A DNA stretch of 36,128 bases from a virus (Duplodnaviria; Heunggongvirae; Uroviricota; Caudoviricetes): positions 1-36,128 of the IMG/VR virus record IMGVR_UViG_2778261667_000013; one strand, 5' to 3'. The notes beneath the pieces were generated by a model, which had not been told where the DNA came from, searched no databases, and was given only the letters and a program-made list of their open reading frames with translations. The translations under genes and the position numbers were made by a program. This document shows positions 6,542 through 36,128 of the stretch, one piece after another; the first letter of the stretch is position 1; each line of letters begins with the position of its first letter.

Positions 6542-7195
6542 TTAATTAACCGGCGTGTCAGACATGCCGTGTGGGGTTGGGTGTTTGTGTGTTCCGATTT
6601 TAACGCCATTAATGGTGACGTCAACGGAGGTAAGCACACCACCTACATGGTTGATGTTGCCTTCAAAAGTGGCGGCGTATTCCTTGCCCCCACTGATGGC
6701 CATGCCACCGTTGCCGGTGATTTTACCTTCCACCGTCAGCTTATCGCTGGCCGTCAGTAACGGTGTCGTGAATGCGGCGTTCTCCTCTGCCTCAACCTCA
6801 TAGCGTTTGCATTTCACCCGGTAAACGTCACATTCTGTTTCAATAATCCGCCCGCGCTTCAGTACGATTTTTGCGCCTTCGTCGGTATACAGGGCCACCT
6901 CGCCGGGTTTCAGTTCCGTCAGGCGATATGCGCCGTGCTCTGTGGCCACGACGACGGTATGGGAGGTATTGCCGTTCAGCGGAACGGCAATACCCATTGA
7001 GCCGGGCGGCGGGGATGTGGTGAGGCCGTAATGCTGAAAATACTCCGCACCGTCCAGCTGTTCGCCTGCCAGCCCGTTCAACTGAAGCAACTGTACTTTG
7101 GTCGAACTGTCCACCGTACCGGTCACCACCCTGAATGCCTGGCGAACGGCGGACAGCGCCTGCTGTATGCGCTGATTAATCTTGTCCCACATCAT
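6542..7195 (-). CDS. baseplate assembly/spike protein (Mu Q / gp45-like, V-family)
   Basis: 217 aa; position between P-like and gp46-like genes; 4-nt overlap with upstream gene. Confidence 0.65.
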   Translation of the reverse strand: MMWDKINQRIQQALSAVRQAFRVVTGTVDSSTKVQLLQLNGLAGEQLDGAEYFQHYGLTTSPPPGSMGIAVPLNGNTSHTVVVATEHGAYRLTELKPGEVALYTDEGAKIVLKRGRIIETECDVYRVKCKRYEVEAEENAAFTTPLLTASDKLTVEGKITGNGGMAISGGKEYAATFEGNINHVGGVLTSVDVTINGVKIGTHKHPTPHGMSDTPVN

Positions 7196-18483: not shown

Positions 18484-18636
18484 TGCCATAACGCGAAAGG
18501 ATAAAAGGGGAAATAAAACCGTTTTTAAAACCCTTTTAAAAACGATTCTGACAGCATTTACGGGGTGCAGTGCTGTAATGCCTCATCCGTGAGGCGTTTA
18601 TGTTGTCACAGGCGATTACAGCGCGTTTGTGGCCAT

Positions 18637-25885: not shown

Positions 25886-25914
25886 ACTGCTGGGGGTGTT
25901 CAGCACCCCCAGCA
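25886..25914 (-). promoter_or_regulatory. conserved motif site 3 (upstream of lysis cassette), 12 bp perfect inverted repeat
   Basis: ctgctgggggtg-ttcag-cacccccagcag; ~140 nt upstream of the holin start. Confidence 0.45.
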
Positions 25915-25933
25915 GGTTGATTAGCTGGATGGG

Positions 25934-26248: not shown

Positions 26249-26280
26249 TTAATCAAAAAGCCCCACCTGGGTGGGGCTTT
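26249..26280 (-). terminator. rho-independent terminator overlapping the 3' end of the Mor/C gene
   Basis: Minus-strand hairpin GCCCCACC-CA-GGTGGGGC followed by TTTTTGAT and the stop codon; coordinates approximate. Confidence 0.6.
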
Positions 26281-26716
26281 TCAGCGAAGTCTGTTTTTGT
26301 CGTCGGTGTATCAGCTGCCATGCGTACCGGTCTGAAATGCCGTAACGGGGACAGAGCAGTGCCAGCGCCTGCCGGTGTGAGCATCCGTCTTTTACATGCT
26401 GCTGTAAATCAGCCATAAAACGGGTGTTACGCAGGGCACGTAACGCATGATCGCAACGGGGAATGTAAAACGGCGCACCGCCAAGAAAGCGGATCAGTTT
26501 GTTGATTTCGTCTTCGGTCAGCACATCATGTAACAGGGCATGGACACCGCCGGTTCGTTCGGCGTGTGCGCCGGTTTTACCGCTTAACGTCACGCCACCA
26601 AAAGAACGGATTAACCGGGTCAGGGCGGGGAAGCCAATCACGCTAATCAGTTGCTGCACGGAATCAGGCAACAGTGCCTGCGCATCGCGAAGATCTGTTT
26701 CACTGAAGGTCTGCAT
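26249..26716 (-). CDS. Mor/C-family transcriptional activator (middle/late gene activator)
   Basis: 155 aa; C-terminal region ...FLGGAPFYIPRCDHALRALRN...RYGISDRYAWQLIHRR matches the Mor/C signature (GG..YIPR plus C-terminal HTH). Confidence 0.8.
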   Translation of the reverse strand: MQTFSETDLRDAQALLPDSVQQLISVIGFPALTRLIRSFGGVTLSGKTGAHAERTGGVHALLHDVLTEDEINKLIRFLGGAPFYIPRCDHALRALRNTRFMADLQQHVKDGCSHRQALALLCPRYGISDRYAWQLIHRRQKQTSLKSPTQVGLFD

Positions 26717-26778
26717 GATGGCGTCTCCGGTAGTAACTTACTGTTATTATAGCCATACATGATCGCCTGTACAGACCA

Positions 26779-26806
26779 CAAAAAAAGCCCCTGCAAGGCA
26801 GAGGCT
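26779..26806 (-). terminator. rho-independent terminator downstream of GemA-like gene
   Basis: Minus-strand hairpin AGCCTCTGC-CTTG-CAGGGGCT followed by TTTTTTT; 7 nt after the stop at 26813; coordinates approximate. Confidence 0.7.
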
Positions 26807-26812
26807 GATTCT

Positions 26813-27226
26813 TTATTGTTTACGTGCTGCTCTGGCTCGTTTTCTGGCGTCTTTTGTCAGCGCCACCATCACCCCGAACAGTTGATCATCTGTCAGCCAT
26901 TCGATCACATGTTGCTTATACATGTGAGATGCCAGTCCTTCCGCATACGCCCAGGAACGACCGGCATCAGCCAGCAACGCTTCAATTTTGGATAATACTG
27001 ATTTTCTGCTCATTGCAACACGGGGGCGGCGACCTTTACCGGCGGGTGCCTTGCGCGGAAATCCCTGTTCGTGCATGTATTCCCGGATGATGCGCAGTTC
27101 ATCAAGATTGCAACGTGTGGTGCTGGTTTTACCTGTCAGGCGGGCCAGTGTCTGGCGATAAAGGGCATCATCCCACCCCAGATACGCCTGACCGGCTTTA
27201 ATGGCCCCGATCATCTTTTTCAGCAT
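26813..27226 (-). CDS. GemA-like protein (Mu gp16 / DUF1018-like)
   Basis: ORF 26813..27325; start placed at MLKKMIGAIKAGQAYLGWDD... (27226); position immediately before the activator gene as in Mu. Confidence 0.55.
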   Translation of the reverse strand: MLKKMIGAIKAGQAYLGWDDALYRQTLARLTGKTSTTRCNLDELRIIREYMHEQGFPRKAPAGKGRRPRVAMSRKSVLSKIEALLADAGRSWAYAEGLASHMYKQHVIEWLTDDQLFGVMVALTKDARKRARAARKQ

Positions 27227-27476
27227 GTTTGTTATCCTCAAAACGCACGGTAAAACGTGAAACGCCAATTCCTGACAGGAACGTGGCGGCACGATCAAGA
27301 GACAGCCACGTCTTGTAATCGCCACGGCGTTCCTGTAGAAAATAGGACACCCCGGCGCGACGATTCACAGCAAAGAGGTGATACACACCACCGAACCGCT
27401 GCACGACGAACTCATCCACGCCACCGCTTTCAGCCTGCTGCCTGAAGGCAGCTATTCCGATTTGTTCAATCTTCAT
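27198..27476 (-). CDS. hypothetical early protein
   Basis: ORF 27198..27512; ORF-track start ATG lies in the centre of a 26 bp palindrome, so downstream ATG (MKIEQIG..., 27476) is preferred; no clear RBS for either. Confidence 0.35.
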   Translation of the reverse strand: MKIEQIGIAAFRQQAESGGVDEFVVQRFGGVYHLFAVNRRAGVSYFLQERRGDYKTWLSLDRAATFLSGIGVSRFTVRFEDNKHAEKDDRGH

Positions 27477-27499
27477 AATGACCAAAACACTACTTTTGG

Positions 27500-27525
27500 C
27501 AGACCAAAACATATGTTTTGGTCTG
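27500..27525. promoter_or_regulatory. 26 bp perfect palindrome CAGACCAAAACATATGTTTTGGTCTG (operator-like site)
   Basis: Perfect dyad centred on CATATG, preceded by a second CCAAAAC...TTTTGG inverted repeat at ~27482-27499; intergenic between two early ORFs; coordinates approximate. Confidence 0.5.
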
Positions 27526-27556
27526 CGCTTAATTGTTATTTGCTCAATGCGGTGAA

Positions 27557-27808
27557 TTATTTATCACCATCACCGAGCGTCACTTCATGACAGGATGGCG
27601 TGCCATTTTTCCCCGCAGAGCAATAAATAAACTTATCTCCGTCGGTCATGGTGGCACTTCCATCATCACAATGCGTAATGGTTTTGATGAAATTTCTCTT
27701 TACCACGCAATGCCCATTTTTCGCATCATCAGAAGCCTTGTTAGTTGTCACACAAAGCGCAATACCCGTAGCAATCAGAGCGATAATAAAAATGTCAACC
27801 CATCTCAT
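27557..27808 (-). CDS. small Cys-rich protein with N-terminal signal/TM segment
   Basis: ORF 27557..27976 trimmed to MRWVDIFIIALIATGIALCV... (83 aa); hydrophobic N-terminus then soluble part with 4 Cys. Confidence 0.4.
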   Translation of the reverse strand: MRWVDIFIIALIATGIALCVTTNKASDDAKNGHCVVKRNFIKTITHCDDGSATMTDGDKFIYCSAGKNGTPSCHEVTLGDGDK

Positions 27809-27812
27809 CTTT

Positions 27813-28031
27813 TCACCCCGCGTAATCAGGTCCATGTTCCCATCTGGCATCGAGTATTTCCGTTCCCTCCGTCCGGCATGGGTTATCAAGTGCCATTTTT
27901 CCGCACTCCCCATACTCGACATCGACAAAATCAGCAATATCATTGTCCGTTGCGTTATCAGGAACGTCGATTTCAAGCGTTACAGTGATAGTTTTCATCA
28001 GGTTGTTACTCCGAGATTCAGAAAATTTCAT
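27813..28031 (-). CDS. small acidic hypothetical protein
   Basis: 72 aa ORF (possible internal start MKTITV...); Asp/Glu-rich. Confidence 0.35.
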   Translation of the reverse strand: MKFSESRSNNLMKTITVTLEIDVPDNATDNDIADFVDVEYGECGKMALDNPCRTEGTEILDARWEHGPDYAG

Positions 28032-28039
28032 GCCGGGAC

Positions 28040-28450
28040 TCAGTATGTGAAATAGACAGTTGCCACACCGTTATAGTGGTCAAACGACACGGCGTTTACC
28101 TCATAACTGGCCGGGAGCTTCGAGCCAAGAACGTATCCGGGCCACGTTTTCCATGGAATTTCTCTGCTCTCACTATCGCCATATACCGTACATCCCAGTG
28201 AGCCTACAGCTTCATAAGAACGCTTACCGCACGTTATGAACCCCAGATTTTGCTTACTGCCCTTAACAGAAATCGGGAGAGCACTGGCTGATGCGTTAGC
28301 AGCGCCCCGCTCCTGTTGGCTTGCGATATTCGCAGAGTTCGCAGCAGCTACAGCAGCCGTTGTCGCGGCGGTAGATGCCACAATAACTGCTGAAGCCTGT
28401 GCCTGTTGGGTAACGGTCAGCAATGCCGCCACAAAAATCATCTTCTTCAC
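28040..28450 (-). CDS. secreted protein with cleavable signal peptide
   Basis: 136 aa; N-terminus MKKMIFVAALLTVTQQAQA is a classic Sec signal peptide; Ala-rich linker then a domain with two Cys; ~190 bp non-coding region upstream. Confidence 0.55.
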   Translation of the reverse strand: MKKMIFVAALLTVTQQAQASAVIVASTAATTAAVAAANSANIASQQERGAANASASALPISVKGSKQNLGFITCGKRSYEAVGSLGCTVYGDSESREIPWKTWPGYVLGSKLPASYEVNAVSFDHYNGVATVYFTY

Positions 28451-28643
28451 CTGGTATCTCCTTTACATGCTGTGATTTTTCCAGCGGTTTTGCGCCGCAC
28501 TTCTGCTCCGCCAGACACCGTAAAAACGAATAGAGGAGCACCCCCTAAAACCCAGATATCTATAGTAAATAACAAGCCTGTTTGAGATACGGATACGCTG
28601 CCCTGGCTTTGCTATCAGCAGTCTTGCCTTACGGTTTTTCATC

Positions 28644-28835
28644 TCATCCTTCCTCGCTTTTTGCAGTTTCAAACCACGCATCCTGCCCCACAACATCATC
28701 ACCACATGGTGGTTCAGATTCTGAATAGCGACCGGCCCACCAGTATTTACCATTACGATGCTTTGCTGTGCCGCAACGCTGGCATATGAAAATTGACCCA
28801 TCACGCTGATAATGATGGATGTGCTCGTTACTCAT
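28644..28835 (-). CDS. small Cys/His-containing protein (zinc-ribbon-like candidate)
   Basis: 63 aa; HIHHY...ICQRCG...PPCGDD; ATGA overlap with upstream ORF. Confidence 0.4.
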   Translation of the reverse strand: MSNEHIHHYQRDGSIFICQRCGTAKHRNGKYWWAGRYSESEPPCGDDVVGQDAWFETAKSEEG

Positions 28836-31277: not shown

Positions 31278-31350
31278 CAGATTCAGGCGTAAGCCAGCCC
31301 CGGCGGGTTTACGCCTGTTTTAAATAACAATTAAAAACAAATTAAATTAA
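31278..31350. repeat. intergenic direct repeat copy B (hairpin + RBS cassette)
   Basis: cagattcaggcgtaagccagccccggcgggtttacgcc + AT-rich tail; ends at the stop of the upstream ORF; coordinates approximate. Confidence 0.7.
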
Positions 31351-32655: not shown

Positions 32656-32895
32656 TCATTGCCATACGACGGTGCAGCCGTCGATACAGGACGTTTTCAC
32701 CACGCGGCGCAGGCCGCTGAATGTCTGGATGATTTCCGTTACCGGCCATACAGGACCACCCACGGGCGGGCAGGCATAAACCACAGGTAAACGGTGATGC
32801 TGTCCCGTTACACGACCGCCAGTGGTGTGGATGGCCACACGGGCACGGGAACGGACGGCGTTAATGGTCTGCTTGTCCATCGTCTTGTTCTCCAT
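32656..32895 (-). CDS. hypothetical early protein immediately downstream of B (Mu kil position)
   Basis: 79 aa; stop/start overlap with B; synteny only. Confidence 0.35.
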   Translation of the reverse strand: MENKTMDKQTINAVRSRARVAIHTTGGRVTGQHHRLPVVYACPPVGGPVWPVTEIIQTFSGLRRVVKTSCIDGCTVVWQ

Positions 32896-33788
32896 CAGTG
32901 AATTAACATTTCTGCGAATTTATCAATGGCCTGCACACTGACCGGTGCATCGCTGATATCACAAATCCGGTACACACCGCGCGCCAGTTTGAAGAGGCGG
33001 CGGGCATTACCCAGCGAGCGTGCGTAAAGCGCCTCGCTGATTTCCGGTTCTGCTGCTTCCGGCATCAACCCGGTAGCTATCTGGTTAAAATCTTCCTGCG
33101 ACAACGTATCGCCCAGGTTAAGCGCCAGCGCCACACGGCTGTATAACTGGGCGAACTCACCACGACGCCCCTTAAGGTTAATCAGAAGACGAGGCATACC
33201 CGCCAGGACAACCCCGATACCCGCTTTGTCATGCAGACGACGCAGAACCTCCAGTGCGCGATAGGGGAGCAGTTCAGCCTCGTCCACCATCAGCAGGCGA
33301 CCGGAATCACGCAGTTCGCGCACACAGGCATCTATCAGTTCGTGAATGTTGCCGCGAACCTTTACCCCCAGCTGGCGGCACAACTCCTCAAGCAGTGTTC
33401 TGGCTGTATAGCCCGGGTCAGCCTCAATCAGGACCGCATCCCGGTTTCTGGCGGCGTATTCACGCAGAATCATTGTTTTGCCAAGACCTGCCGCGCCATA
33501 CAGTACGCAGATTTCACATTCCAGGTGAGCATAGGCCAACACCTCCAGTCCTTTGGCAGCCATACCGGTGGCAACAAATTTCGCTTTAATACGGCGGCTG
33601 TTTTCCTTTTCCCGCTCACGGGTCACAAAGGCAGAAATGCGTTCTTCAATATCAGCCATATCGCCCTGATATTTACCCTGTAAATACTGGTTGATAACGG
33701 CGCTGCTACGACCAATAGCACGGGCGACGTGGGTTTGCGTATAGCCGCGACGGGCCATTACGTCATTTAATTGCGTAATTAAACTCAT
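32895..33788 (-). CDS. MuB-like transposition ATPase (AAA+)
   Basis: 297 aa; N-terminal HTH-like segment (YTQTHVARAIGRSSAVINQYLQGK), Walker A GAAGLGKT, Walker B LLMVDEAE; immediately downstream of transposase. Confidence 0.85.
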   Translation of the reverse strand: MSLITQLNDVMARRGYTQTHVARAIGRSSAVINQYLQGKYQGDMADIEERISAFVTREREKENSRRIKAKFVATGMAAKGLEVLAYAHLECEICVLYGAAGLGKTMILREYAARNRDAVLIEADPGYTARTLLEELCRQLGVKVRGNIHELIDACVRELRDSGRLLMVDEAELLPYRALEVLRRLHDKAGIGVVLAGMPRLLINLKGRRGEFAQLYSRVALALNLGDTLSQEDFNQIATGLMPEAAEPEISEALYARSLGNARRLFKLARGVYRICDISDAPVSVQAIDKFAEMLIH

Positions 33789-33806: not shown

Positions 33807-35849
33807 TTAACGGTTGTTTGTGCCGTTTTTCTTTAAATTGCGCTCGCGTTCAGATGCGAATAAATAAAGTTCTTCTTTTTCCTTTTTCTCCTGGCGTTCC
33901 AGTCCATATCCCAGATTAAACTCAGGCTTCTGCGTAATAGCCGGGGTAAGCTCGCGTTTAGCCTCTTCGATTTTCTGCGCGGCCCGTGCAATGCGGCCTC
34001 TGACGCGTTTCTCCAGTTTTTGCTCGATAACTGGTTTAGCGAAGGCATCAACCTTGTTACCGTTCCAGATGGCATCGCAGATATAAGAGCCATCAGCCCG
34101 CCGGACAATGACACTGTTTGCATCATGAATATCGTAACTGACCCTGACTTCATTCCCGTGCTCTGCGGCCAGCTCATACGAGTAATAAATATTGTTGAAT
34201 AACTGAATTTCCCCGCGAAATGTTTTGCGCGTCACTTCCGGTCTGAACATTTCATGCAGTTCTTCCGGCGACAGGAAATCAATTTCAACATTCTGCTCTT
34301 TTATCAGTTTCCGGCGATACGCTGCCGGGCTGTAATATTCGCCATCCTCTTTGCGGGGAAGGCTGCTGTGTGGCCGGTTGTTATAGCGTCTGACCTCCAG
34401 TTCTATGGCTGCCATCAGTTGCTCAAAGGTGGGGATTTCATCCCTCGCCTTAACCTGCCGTTTTGTCAGTTCTTTCCCTTTGTGGGTGGCCTTAATGGCT
34501 GACTGCATAATCCGTTGCTGCATCATTACGGTTTCCTTGTCTGCTCCCTTTGAGCAGTACGTCTGGAAACTCAGGGCCACATCCCGGGGAATTTCCTTGT
34601 TAAGCCTTTCAATCACCCCGCGCCCCTGCGGGTTACCTGGTATCCCCGTGTGATGTTCCACACCCAGCCGGGGGAGAATCCCGGTAATATCGGCATCAAG
34701 AACCCGGTTTTTTTCGCCGCCCCCGTTATCGGAGTAATAAATCAGCGGTATCCCGTGCTGTGCCATGCCGTAACGCAACGCATCAGCAACGGCTATCACG
34801 TTCTCCGACAGGGACAGCGACCAGCCCACAACAAAGCGTTGCCCCGCATCCATAACCAGCGTCACTTCTGGCCGGAAAATATTGCCGGTCAGTGGGTTAA
34901 ACGCGGTCATCTTCATACAGTGACCATCCCCGACCCATACCGCATTAACCGGTAGCGATGTCCAGTCGCGCCGCACAAAGGGATTGAGCGAACGCCAGGC
35001 TGAACCGGTGGAGCGGAAACGCTCCTTAACAATCACCGGGACGTTGCTTAACACCCGTCTTACTGCGTGAACGGAAGGCAGTGCTGCCAGCATTCCCGCA
35101 TCATTCGCGTGTTTTTCATGCCACCAGGCTGAAAACTCGCGATAAGCGTATTCAACGGTCGGGCGCTTCCATGAGCGATAGAACATAAAGAAATCGCTCA
35201 ACCACCAGACCTGCTCCCACGGTGTTCCCTTATGATGACCGGGAGCCAGTAACGCCAGTAACTGATTGGCATCACCGCGCGCCATCAGCCAGGCGGAATA
35301 CCATTCCTGTAAACATCCCCAGCTGACGCCAGTTCGCTTACCCTGTCTGGCGTTGGCAGTACCTGCGGCCTCAATAATGCGGTCAGGCAATGCCCTCTGA
35401 CGAATACCATCAACGATGTGTTTTACTGCTGCCGTCCTGGACATTCCTGCGTATTCACGCAGTTTATGCACTTCGGTAGCCAGCAATATCCGCGCATCAG
35501 CGATGGCCTTTTGCTTGTCGGTCAGTGCCTGGACTTCGCGTAATGCCAGTTCCGGGCATTTGACCATCACTTCCAGTTCATCGCGAACGGTAACGTTTTT
35601 AACTGCCTTCTGCTCAACCACGGCAGGCAGTTGTGCATCTTCCAGAACCTGATGGGTCAGGCGTTTACGTAAAACTTTCTGCGCTTCAGCAGGCAGGCAG
35701 TCGATGTGATACTCGAATGCTTTGGTGCCTTCACGCTTGCGCTTCCATTCCGGGTTATTTTCAGCAAGACGATCCAGACGTGCCCGGATGTTTTTTTCTG
35801 CTGATGGAAAACCGGATAATCCCAGGCAATCCCGCACTACAAACCACAC
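33807..35849 (-). CDS. MuA-like DDE transposase
   Basis: 680 aa; catalytic-core-like motifs WVGDGH and YYSDNGGGE; located between ner-like and B-like genes as in Mu. Confidence 0.9.
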   Translation of the reverse strand: MWFVVRDCLGLSGFPSAEKNIRARLDRLAENNPEWKRKREGTKAFEYHIDCLPAEAQKVLRKRLTHQVLEDAQLPAVVEQKAVKNVTVRDELEVMVKCPELALREVQALTDKQKAIADARILLATEVHKLREYAGMSRTAAVKHIVDGIRQRALPDRIIEAAGTANARQGKRTGVSWGCLQEWYSAWLMARGDANQLLALLAPGHHKGTPWEQVWWLSDFFMFYRSWKRPTVEYAYREFSAWWHEKHANDAGMLAALPSVHAVRRVLSNVPVIVKERFRSTGSAWRSLNPFVRRDWTSLPVNAVWVGDGHCMKMTAFNPLTGNIFRPEVTLVMDAGQRFVVGWSLSLSENVIAVADALRYGMAQHGIPLIYYSDNGGGEKNRVLDADITGILPRLGVEHHTGIPGNPQGRGVIERLNKEIPRDVALSFQTYCSKGADKETVMMQQRIMQSAIKATHKGKELTKRQVKARDEIPTFEQLMAAIELEVRRYNNRPHSSLPRKEDGEYYSPAAYRRKLIKEQNVEIDFLSPEELHEMFRPEVTRKTFRGEIQLFNNIYYSYELAAEHGNEVRVSYDIHDANSVIVRRADGSYICDAIWNGNKVDAFAKPVIEQKLEKRVRGRIARAAQKIEEAKRELTPAITQKPEFNLGYGLERQEKKEKEELYLFASERERNLKKNGTNNR

Positions 35850-35858
35850 GATTCCACC

Positions 35859-36128
35859 TTACACCGCTATTTGCGATGTCTCATGCAAATAGCGACTTGG
35901 CCAAATCACATCAGGCGTTACGCCAACAGCCTGGGCAATTACCTGTTCGTATTTGGAGCACGGTCGATAAAACACATTCCGCATGGAACCGGGTTTCAAT
36001 CCCTGTGCTTTTTCCAGCGAGGGTAAATCAATCCCTTTATTTTTTAACGCCGTTTGAATCGCCATTGCTGACCAGTCATGACCGCGACGAACAAACAGGT
36101 CGGTTAGATCTTGTCTCAACAACTGCAT
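35859..36128 (-). CDS. ner: Ner-like DNA-binding regulator (start at window edge)
   Basis: C-terminal region ...AQAVGVTPDVIWPSRY... matches the Ner/Nlp family motif (EVIWPSRY); ORF reaches the last base of the window so the true start may lie outside. Confidence 0.75.
   Translation of the reverse strand: MQLLRQDLTDLFVRRGHDWSAMAIQTALKNKGIDLPSLEKAQGLKPGSMRNVFYRPCSKYEQVIAQAVGVTPDVIWPSRYLHETSQIAV

What the first reader, a model, noticed from the sequence alone, without database searches (positions are those of the whole stretch)
27480..27530. 26 bp perfect palindrome with flanking CCAAAAC repeats
CAGACCAAAACAT|ATGTTTTGGTCTG is a perfect 26 bp dyad (~27500-27525), preceded by a second inverted repeat CCAAAAC-actac-TTTTGG (~27482-27499). 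That gives four CCAAAAC/GTTTTGG half-sites in alternating orientation within ~45 bp. The ORF-track start of the downstream gene falls on the palindrome centre (CATATG). The stem is AT-rich with no U-tract, so it looks more like a dimeric protein-binding operator or recombination site than a terminator.
Basis: seen in the sequence. Interest (0 to 1): 0.5.

Follow-up and report, generated by a model that had tools for sequence, protein, structure and literature searches.

The report
Conserved four-arm hairpin leader in Mu-like prophage
The palindrome is real and under selection: it is half of a four-armed repeat that sits just before a small phage gene of unknown function and most likely folds in the messenger RNA to control how well that gene is translated, an ordinary kind of regulation in a previously undescribed example.

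Summary
The dyad is real. It is a perfect 28-bp palindrome (27499-27526), the longest in the window. It is flanked by a second 6+6 inverted repeat, which gives four CCAAAA/TTTTGG arms. The window is a Mu-like prophage with its genes on the minus strand.

The element fills the 80-nt gap before a 92-aa gene (phrog_7844, 27198-27476) that overlaps gemA. That gene starts at ATG 27476. The ATG at the palindrome centre is not conserved.

Across 31 related haplotypes the arms are almost invariant (3/32 sites vary). The loops vary at or above the rate of third codon positions. Fifteen homologous lineages (55-86% protein identity) keep an ungapped CCA-N12-TGG / N4 / CCA-N12-TGG register, three of them apparently not beside gemA. 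Inner pairs of arm1:arm2 covary (C-G, A-U, U-A, G-C). Arm 4 overlaps the best Shine-Dalgarno-like stretch in 12 of 15 lineages.

No conserved promoter, U-tract on the coding strand, Rfam match or extra copy was found.

Best reading (about 0.5): an mRNA leader with alternative pairings that masks the ribosome-binding site. A DNA operator (about 0.2) is not excluded.

It is a new member of a known kind and of moderate interest.

The parts
27515..27525 (-). Arm 1 (5' arm of hairpin 1 on the coding strand, CAGACCAAAAC). It pairs with arm 2, and alternatively with arm 4.
   Evidence: The only variable stem sites in close relatives lie in arms 1 and 3 (C1>U, A4>G, C11>U in arm 1), and all give G.U on the coding strand.
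27511..27514 (-). Loop of hairpin 1, the centre of the palindrome (AUAU within CAUAUG).
   Evidence: The six central positions (C11-G16, 27510-27515) have 5/6 sites variable and pi 0.16, at least as high as third codon positions (0.117).
27500..27510 (-). Arm 2 (3' arm of hairpin 1, GUUUUGGUCUG). It resembles a Shine-Dalgarno sequence and can alternatively pair with arm 3.
   Evidence: The ten outer positions (27500-27509) are invariant in 31 haplotypes; G16 (27510), the loop-closing partner of C11, varies. The arm2:arm3 helix is 88% paired across 20 diverse leaders, with U-A to A-U changes.
27494..27499 (-). Arm 3 (5' arm of hairpin 2, CCAAAA), complementary to the Shine-Dalgarno-like arm 4.
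   Evidence: One variant, C27>U (L062), gives a U.G pair.
27488..27493 (-). Loop of hairpin 2 (GUAGUG).
   Evidence: 4/6 sites are variable, pi 0.20.
27482..27487 (-). Arm 4 (3' arm of hairpin 2, UUUUGG), which overlaps the best Shine-Dalgarno-like stretch before the AUG.
   Evidence: Invariant in 31 haplotypes. The best anti-SD match in the last 22 nt overlaps this arm in 12 of 15 lineages and is very weak here, -2.2 kcal/mol. Unpaired probability is 0.18-0.46.
27198..27476 (-). The 92-aa gene served by the leader (phrog_7844, function unknown). Its true start is ATG 27476-27474, and its 3' end overlaps the gemA start.
27527..27548 (-). Semi-conserved A/U-rich 5' flank (AAAYARTAAYCAA-like). 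The mosaic joint with the variable accessory genes lies here.
   Evidence: Diversity steps from pi 0.26-0.30 (-70..-51) to 0.06 (-50..-41) at the base of hairpin 1.
27557..27808 (-). Upstream 83-aa accessory ORF (phrog_8391). Other prophages carry different genes at this place.
26813..27226 (-). gemA (PF06252), overlapping the end of the 92-aa gene and probably co-expressed with it.

Best explanation
The palindrome is arms 1 and 2 of a four-arm cis-regulatory leader, about 49 nt long, that ends 5 nt before the AUG of the 92-aa gene (phrog_7844) and acts in the minus-strand (coding-strand) mRNA.

What is shown. The arms alternate CCAAAA / UUUUGG / CCAAAA / UUUUGG, so each forward arm can pair with either reverse arm.
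- In the tandem fold, arm1:arm2 forms hairpin 1 (11 counted pairs, plus the flanking G27526:C27499 pair of the 28-bp palindrome; about -15 kcal/mol) and arm3:arm4 forms hairpin 2 (6 bp, -3.8 kcal/mol).
- In the nested fold, arm1:arm4 and arm2:arm3 pair. This fold is computed to be iso-energetic with the tandem fold.
- Arm 4 overlaps the best, though very weak, Shine-Dalgarno-like stretch before the AUG here and in 12 of 15 lineages.
- The arms are under purifying selection, the inner pairs covary, and the register is conserved.

What is inferred. The leader keeps the ribosome-binding region base-paired and so sets or switches the translation of the 92-aa gene, and through the overlap probably of gemA. 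Arm 3 acts as an anti-SD, arm 2 as an SD mimic that can release arm 4, and arm 1 as the mask of arm 2. This is the logic of four-segment translational attenuators and of the alternative lambda cIII mRNA structures. In the E. coli-type lineage hairpin 1 has been lengthened into the perfect palindrome. That would lock arm 2 away and would also insulate the initiation region from whichever accessory gene lies upstream.

What is not known. That the function is at the RNA level and concerns translation is inference. The trigger is unknown; candidates are a terminating upstream ribosome, RNase III or a binding protein.
For: 1. Selection on the arms. In 31 haplotypes, 3/32 arm sites vary (pi 0.000-0.025). 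By comparison 9/12 loop sites vary (pi 0.16-0.20) and 73/93 third codon positions vary (pi 0.117).

2. Complementarity kept while sequence changes.
- In EPEC E2348/69 the loop-closing pair C11-G16 has become A-U.
- Across 20 diverse leaders the same pair is UA:5, CG:4, UG:2, AU:1, GC:1, and neighbouring pairs switch between AU and UA.
- The covariation score is 0.159, against 0.113 for shuffles (4/500 reach it).

3. In close relatives all four non-terminal stem changes lie in the C/A-rich forward arms and give G.U on the coding strand. They would be C.A on the + strand.

4. The register CCA-N12-TGG / N4 / CCA-N12-TGG is ungapped in 15/15 lineages at 55-86% protein identity. These include three (L071-L073) in which no gemA was called in the locus held and the next called gene is a terminase small subunit. 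The leader therefore belongs to the gene and not to the Mu early operon.

5. Arm 4 overlaps the best anti-SD match in 12/15 lineages. It lies 2-11 nt before the AUG and is mostly paired in the ensemble.

6. The tandem fold (-21.0 kcal/mol) and the nested fold (-21.1) are iso-energetic. The fold z-score is -4.75.

7. In some relatives the upstream ORF ends 6 nt before arm 1 (L020) or runs through arms 1-3 and stops in the unit-2 loop (L017, and L041/L042 by my reading of the sequence). This would give a natural trigger by a terminating ribosome.
Against: - The four CCA/TGG triplets never covary (CG:20, CG:20, AU:20). That fits sequence-specific protein recognition as well as it fits multi-partner pairing.
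- In most distant lineages arm3:arm4 keeps only 3 bp, and the whole leader is not significantly structured (z -1.0 to +1.8).
- In the broad set, coding-strand G.U pairs outnumber A.C pairs only 12:7.
- The tandem and nested folds cannot be told apart by covariation (both score 0.159).
- In the E. coli-type lineage the upstream stop codon is 18-105 nt from hairpin 1, so the ribosome-relay trigger cannot work there and no other trigger has been identified.
- There are no expression data.
Confidence: 0.5

Rival explanations
1. The element is a DNA operator. Two dyads (CCA-N12-TGG), 22 bp apart and so about two helical turns, would bind a dimer-of-dimers regulator. The regulator could be the 92-aa protein itself, GemA or a host factor. 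It would repress or block transcription into the 92-aa gene and gemA.
For: - Dyad symmetry with conserved half-sites and freely varying spacers.
- Strict invariance of the CCA/TGG triplets and of the 22-bp phasing across 15 lineages, even where the RNA pairing of unit 2 is reduced to 3 bp.
- The element always accompanies the same gene, as an autoregulatory site would.
Against: - No conserved -35/-10 overlaps or precedes the dyads. Promoter-like hits are absent or lie in non-homologous upstream modules.
- Complementarity of the inner 'spacer' positions is maintained through compensatory changes, which duplex recognition does not require.
- Stem changes in close relatives break the DNA symmetry but keep the RNA pairing.
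- There is no second copy in the window or in the repressor/Ner region of a relative.
- The adjacent protein matched no Pfam family (so no DNA-binding domain was recognised) and resembles eL38 and the FtsH periplasmic domain in fold.
Confidence: 0.2
2. The palindrome is an intrinsic terminator for antisense (+ strand) transcription, protecting the accessory region from read-in.
For: The consensus scan calls the palindrome terminator-like on the + strand in the window, L004 and L006. The stem is GC-rich at its base and is followed by a T-rich, partly conserved tail (TTRRTTAYKRTTT). A second early-region gap (31284-31339) has a GC hairpin followed by TTTT on the + strand.
Against: - The T tail is interrupted and starts 2-3 nt after the stem.
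- No + strand promoter or gene lies upstream of it.
- Variants (A4>G, C1>U, C11>U on the coding strand) would give A.C or C.A mismatches in a + strand hairpin.
- The scan does not call it in L001.
- This reading does not explain arms 3 and 4 or the fixed distance to the AUG.
Confidence: 0.07
3. The element is a recombination joint or linker. A conserved palindrome at the border between the conserved gene block and the swappable accessory genes would serve as the homology patch, or as a structure-prone site, where modules are exchanged. It would have no regulatory role.
For: Diversity steps sharply at the 5' base of hairpin 1 (pi 0.30 to 0.06). At least four unrelated upstream modules abut the same element.
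Against: - The loops inside the element evolve at neutral rates while the arms are frozen, and pairs covary. That indicates selection on pairing, not only on homology.
- The same register exists in lineages where it lies inside the upstream ORF or in other genomic contexts.
- No recombinase or target-site features were found.
Confidence: 0.08

Closest known systems
Four-segment translational attenuation leaders (ermC, cat and cmlA type)
   Same: There are four consecutive complementary segments. Pairing can be 1:2 plus 3:4, or 2:3. Segment 4 carries the Shine-Dalgarno region of the regulated gene. The tandem state masks the ribosome-binding site.
   Different: No conserved leader peptide or stalling site overlaps arm 1. 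In some relatives the end of the upstream gene could play that part, but not in this window. The AUG itself is unpaired. All four arms share one core sequence, so a nested 1:4 plus 2:3 fold is also possible.
Alternative mRNA structures of the phage lambda cIII gene, and RNase III-dependent activation of lambda N (from my own knowledge of the literature)
   Same: It is a phage early-gene leader with two conformations of nearly equal energy. One of them occludes the initiation region more strongly: tandem -21.0 against nested -21.1 kcal/mol.
   Different: There is no sequence similarity. No RNase III dependence has been shown. The nested fold is broken in some natural variants (L058, L040).
Phage Mu com-mom translational control (from my own knowledge)
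   Same: A Mu-type phage has tandem stem-loops directly upstream of a start codon, the second of which sequesters the initiation region.
   Different: The gene, the sequence and the place in the genome are all different. No Com homologue has been identified as a partner. Mu itself lacks both the 92-aa gene and the palindrome.
Tandem dyad operators of phage repressors (for example two sites about two helical turns apart, bound cooperatively)
   Same: There are two dyad-symmetric units in phase (22 bp), with invariant outer triplets and variable centres.
   Different: There is no associated promoter, no recognisable DNA-binding protein next to it, no other copies, and the centre positions show compensatory changes.

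Membership tests
Intrinsic (Rho-independent) terminator | A stable GC-containing hairpin followed directly by a U-tract on the transcribed strand. | tested here: not met
   On the coding (minus) strand hairpin 1 is followed by CCAAAAGUAG and hairpin 2 by UCAUUAUG, so there is no U-tract. Only the + strand gives a weak consensus hit, and it is absent in L001.
Four-segment translational attenuator (ermC type) | Four segments able to pair 1:2 plus 3:4, or 2:3. | tested here: met
   Arm1:arm2 core is 91-100% paired. Arm2:arm3 is 88% paired with U-A to A-U changes. Arm3:arm4 is kept in the window's lineage.
Four-segment translational attenuator (ermC type) | The Shine-Dalgarno sequence or start codon of the regulated gene lies in segment 4. 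| tested here: met
   The best anti-SD match overlaps the arm 4 UGG in 12/15 lineages, 2-11 nt before the AUG. The AUG itself lies outside the helix.
Four-segment translational attenuator (ermC type) | A short leader ORF whose ribosome occupies segment 1. | tested here: not met
   The loop AUG is not conserved and has no SD. The upstream gene stops 18-105 nt before arm 1 in the window's lineage. Only distant relatives have a stop within 6 nt of arm 1 or inside the element.
Dimeric repressor operator | Dyad-symmetric half-sites conserved in sequence. | tested here: met
   The CCA/TGG triplets are invariant in 20 leaders, and the arms are nearly invariant in 31 haplotypes.
Dimeric repressor operator | The site overlaps or adjoins a promoter that it controls. 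| tested here: not met
   No conserved sigma-70-like promoter was found. Hits are absent (L004) or lie in non-homologous upstream genes. Manual inspection of -10-like hexamers found no common register and no -35.
Dimeric repressor operator | A cognate DNA-binding protein. | tested here: inconclusive
Main prophage repressor / Ner operators | The same motif occurs in the c-ner control region. | tested here: not met
   The control region of relative STEC313 (L066) has other repeats (AAGTACGA, TCGATAATCGAA) and no GACCAAAAC at up to 1 mismatch.
Dispersed palindromic repeats (REP/BIME, MITE) | Many copies per genome in unrelated contexts. | tested here: not met
   58 of 5426 E. coli genomes carry it, at 1-2 places each. 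In the 18 relatives fetched it sits in the same position before the 92-aa gene. 11 of 12 IMG/VR hits are in the same context.
Any Rfam family | A covariance-model match. | tested here: not met
   The only hit in 26500-28500 at E<=1 was an unrelated weak isrG match at 28332-28402.

The most novel reading that the evidence does not exclude
The four arms are a bistable RNA switch, or a double binding site, recognised by the product of the gene it precedes. That product is a small protein with an eL38/KH-like fold. Together they would form a portable, self-regulating gene-plus-leader module that moves between Mu-like phages and other phage contexts. This would be a new phage RNA-protein autoregulatory pair.
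Probability: 0.12. Interest if true: 0.55.

Novelty: new member of a known kind. Interest (0 to 1): 0.35.

Why it matters
- It gives a concrete cis-regulatory element, testable with a handful of compensatory mutants, for an uncharacterised gene (phrog_7844) that is co-expressed with gemA.
- It corrects an annotation inconsistency in RefSeq, where the gene is called at 92 aa in some genomes and 104 aa in others.
- It marks the exact border between the conserved and swappable parts of the early region in a family of Mu-like prophages found in pathogenic E. coli, including EPEC E2348/69 and several STEC strains.
- It is not expected to change any general concept.

Tried and rejected
1. Start codon at the palindrome centre: rejected. 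The ATG is shifted or absent in variants, and the N-terminus is conserved from ATG 27476.

2. Site for the prophage repressor or Ner: rejected. The motif is absent from the control region of a relative.

3. Extra copies that would indicate a regulon (Mor-type or other): none found in the window.

4. Internal promoter with the hairpin at +1 (a 'Pgem-like' idea, prompted by the title of Paolozzi & Ghelardini 1992 as cited in PMC3820752). -10-like hexamers exist 8-11 nt upstream, but without a common register or a -35, and the scans are negative or non-homologous. Not supported.

5. Homology with phage Mu. Mu has neither the gene nor the palindrome. It has an unrelated GC hairpin before gemA.

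7. Literature search for the sequence, and for Mu-like, GemA and stem-loop together: nothing relevant.

8. Host transcription-factor consensus resemblances (UxuR/ExuR- or FadR-like TGGT-NN-ACCA at the arm2/arm3 junction). These rest on memory only, were not tested and carry no weight.

9. The metagenome scan and the genome scan added few relatives, so the family is narrow.

Full report
**Context**

The window is a Mu-like prophage with essentially all genes on the minus strand.
- Transposase A lies at 33807-35849 and B at 32895-33788.
- A DUF3164 gene, a DUF7448 gene and a DUF2786/DUF7168 gene follow.
- GemA lies at 26813-27226 and a Mor-family activator at 26249-26716. The late genes come after these.
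- The high-coordinate end of the window stops inside a Ner-like gene.

The finding lies in an 80-nt gap between an 83-aa ORF (27557-27808, phrog_8391) and a 92-aa ORF (27198-27476, phrog_7844). Neither has a known function. The 92-aa ORF overlaps the start of gemA by 29 nt.

**The observation**

The sequence is as described. With the flanking G27499/C27526 the perfect palindrome is 28 bp. It is the longest perfect inverted repeat in the window: the arm is 14 nt, against a maximum of 8-12 in 30 block shuffles.

A second inverted repeat, CCAAAA-N6-TTTTGG (27482-27499), adjoins it. The two units are direct repeats 22 nt apart. GACCAAAAC occurs exactly three times in 36 kb, all of them here.

The 'gene start on the palindrome centre' is an artefact of longest-ORF calling.
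- Relatives have CATGTG, CATGTT, CATACG or AGTATT at the centre.
- All homologues begin MK(I/T/N)E..G at the ATG that corresponds to 27476.
- RefSeq annotates either the 92-aa or the 104-aa form.

**Conservation in close relatives**

The region occurs in 58 of 5426 complete E. coli genomes, at one or two places each. It also occurs in IMG/VR and metagenome contigs. Every context inspected is in front of the same gene, apart from one chance palindrome in an unrelated place (L013).

I compared 31 distinct haplotypes of leader plus gene:

| Region | Variable sites | pi |
|---|---|---|
| Four arms | 3 of 32 | 0.000-0.025 |
| Two loops | 9 of 12 | 0.16-0.20 |
| Third codon positions of the gene | 73 of 93 | 0.117 |

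The arms are therefore under purifying selection, and the loops evolve at or above the third-codon-position rate.

Diversity rises abruptly at the 5' base of hairpin 1, from pi 0.06 at -50..-41 to 0.26-0.30 at -70..-51. At least four unrelated accessory modules abut the element. This fits the 'plasticity region' of accessory genes described for the early operon of transposable phages (PMC9936078).

**RNA or DNA?**

In close relatives the stem changes, read on the coding strand, are these:
- C1>U, A4>G and C11>U in arm 1, and C27>U in arm 3. All lie in forward arms and all give G.U on the coding strand.
- A double change, C11-G16 to A-U, in EPEC E2348/69.
- G16>U and G16>A, which open only the loop-closing pair.

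Apart from G16, the loop-closing partner, the reverse arms, where transitions would break pairing, are invariant.

I then recovered 14 more distant homologues of the gene at 54-86% identity. Several records are titled Erwinia psidii, Leminorella grimontii, Intestinirhabdus alba or an unclassified Enterobacteriaceae bacterium; the rest are IMG/VR contigs and SRA assemblies. In three of them (L071-L073) no gemA was called in the locus held and the next called gene is a small terminase subunit.

All lineages but one align without gaps to a single register: CCA-N12-TGG, N4, CCA-N12-TGG, then 2-11 nt, then AUG. The exception is L023, which lacks arm 1. The four triplets are the only invariant columns.

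Within that frame:
- The inner pairs of arm1:arm2 change sequence but stay complementary. One position shows U-A, C-G, A-U, G-C and U.G, and its neighbours switch between A-U and U-A.
- Hairpin 1 is 6 bp long in L020, 7 bp in L041 and L069, 9 bp in L074 with a different inner sequence, and 11 or more in the window's lineage.
- The arm2:arm3 helix is 88% paired, with U-A to A-U changes in L071-L073.
- The covariation score is 0.159, against about 0.11 in shuffles (reached in 4/500 and 0/500), and it exceeds all slid registers.

Maintained complementarity with changing sequence argues for a folded nucleic acid and against duplex-DNA half-sites.

Several weaknesses remain.
- The CCA/UGG triplets never covary.
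- Unit 2 keeps only 3 bp in many lineages.
- The distant leaders are not significantly structured overall.
- G.U exceeds A.C only 12:7 in the broad set.
- The tandem and nested folds cannot be told apart.

**Link to translation**

Arm 4 ends 5 nt before the AUG. It overlaps the best anti-SD match in the last 22 nt in 12 of 15 lineages. In the window's lineage that match is very weak, -2.2 kcal/mol.

In the window the tandem fold (arm1:arm2 plus arm3:arm4, -21.0 kcal/mol) and the nested fold (arm1:arm4 plus arm2:arm3, -21.1) are iso-energetic. In both, arm 4 is paired while the AUG is free.

Arm 3 thus behaves as an anti-SD, arm 2 as an SD mimic and arm 1 as the mask of arm 2. This is the layout of four-segment translational attenuators and of the alternative lambda cIII mRNA structures; that comparison rests on my own knowledge.

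In some relatives the upstream ORF stops 6 nt before arm 1 (L020), or runs through arms 1-3 and stops in the unit-2 loop (L017, and L041/L042 by my reading of the sequence). A terminating ribosome could therefore flip the relay there. In the window's lineage the stop is 18-105 nt away, so this trigger cannot apply. There hairpin 1 has instead been lengthened into the perfect palindrome, which would lock the leader in the tandem state and insulate it from the changing upstream sequence. This last step is inference.

**Alternatives**

- Antisense + strand terminator. The consensus scan suggests it, but natural variants would mismatch that hairpin, and there is no + strand promoter.
- Pure recombination linker. 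It fits the sharp mosaic joint, but it does not explain frozen arms next to neutral loops or the covariation.
- Known families. Rfam has no match. Phage Mu has neither the gene nor the element. The literature searches found nothing.

**Verdict**

It is most likely (about 0.5) an mRNA leader of paired and alternative stem-loops that masks the ribosome-binding region of the phrog_7844 gene, and indirectly affects gemA. A DNA operator (about 0.2) is the main rival. It is a new, uncatalogued example of a familiar kind of regulation and is of moderate interest.

Noticed in passing
window 26786-26806 (minus strand) and 26746-26773: A strong terminator-like hairpin with a T7 run (AGCCTCTGCCTTGCAGGGGCT TTTTTTT) lies directly after gemA. 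It is followed by a promoter-like TGTACA-16-TATAAT just before the Mor-family gene. In this phage mor may therefore be separated from the early transcript and have its own promoter.
   Followed up: no
window 31284-31339: Another early-region intergenic gap holds two adjacent inverted repeats: a GC-rich one (CAGGCGTAA...TTACGCCTG) and an AT-rich one (TGTTTTAAAT/ATTAAAAACA). They lie just upstream of the SD of the DUF7448 gene. On the + strand the GC hairpin is followed by TTTT. A similar GC hairpin (CAGGCGTAAAT...GCGCCTG) lies immediately upstream of the four-arm leader in the distant relative L070.
   Followed up: partly
window 26256-26281; 25887-25915; 18520-18544; 6965-6994; 35865-35894: Other long perfect inverted repeats are present. 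AAAAGCCCCACC-TG-GGTGGGGCTTTT lies at the 3' end of mor and looks like a bidirectional terminator. CTGCTGGGGGTG-N5-CACCCCCAGCAG lies before the lysis genes. CGTTTTTAAAA-CCC-TTTTAAAAACG is a third. A repeat with 13-nt arms lies inside a tail gene. A repeat with 10-nt arms lies at the 3' end of the Ner-like gene.
   Followed up: no
L051-L064 (E. coli RefSeq relatives): PGAP annotates the same gene as 92 aa (start MKIEQ) in some genomes and as 104 aa (start at the palindrome-centre ATG) in others. The 104-aa form is not supported by conservation.
   Followed up: yes
L071, L072, L073: In these loci no gemA was called and the next called gene is a small terminase subunit (Terminase_2), yet each carries the same CCA-N12-TGG x2 leader. 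In L072 and L073 the gene caller placed the start 21 nt too far downstream.
   Followed up: partly
L017 and L018 (Leminorella grimontii CP146357.1): Two places about 3.5 Mb apart in one chromosome hold near-identical copies of this early region over the 6.2 kb fetched (gene calls differ slightly), as expected for an active transposable phage. In this lineage an HNH endonuclease gene sits between the homologue and gemA.
   Followed up: no
L066 1550-2360 (STEC313 relative, repressor-ner region): The control region carries repeated AAGTACGA / TCGTACTT motifs and a TCGATAATCGAA-type repeat. These are probably the repressor and Ner sites of this prophage type and are unrelated to the palindrome.
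   Followed up: no
window 28644-28835 (minus strand): A 63-aa ORF has a CxxC pair and a weak, sub-threshold Prok-RING hit. It could be a small zinc-finger protein. It was considered as a possible Com-like partner for the leader, but this was not tested.
   Followed up: no
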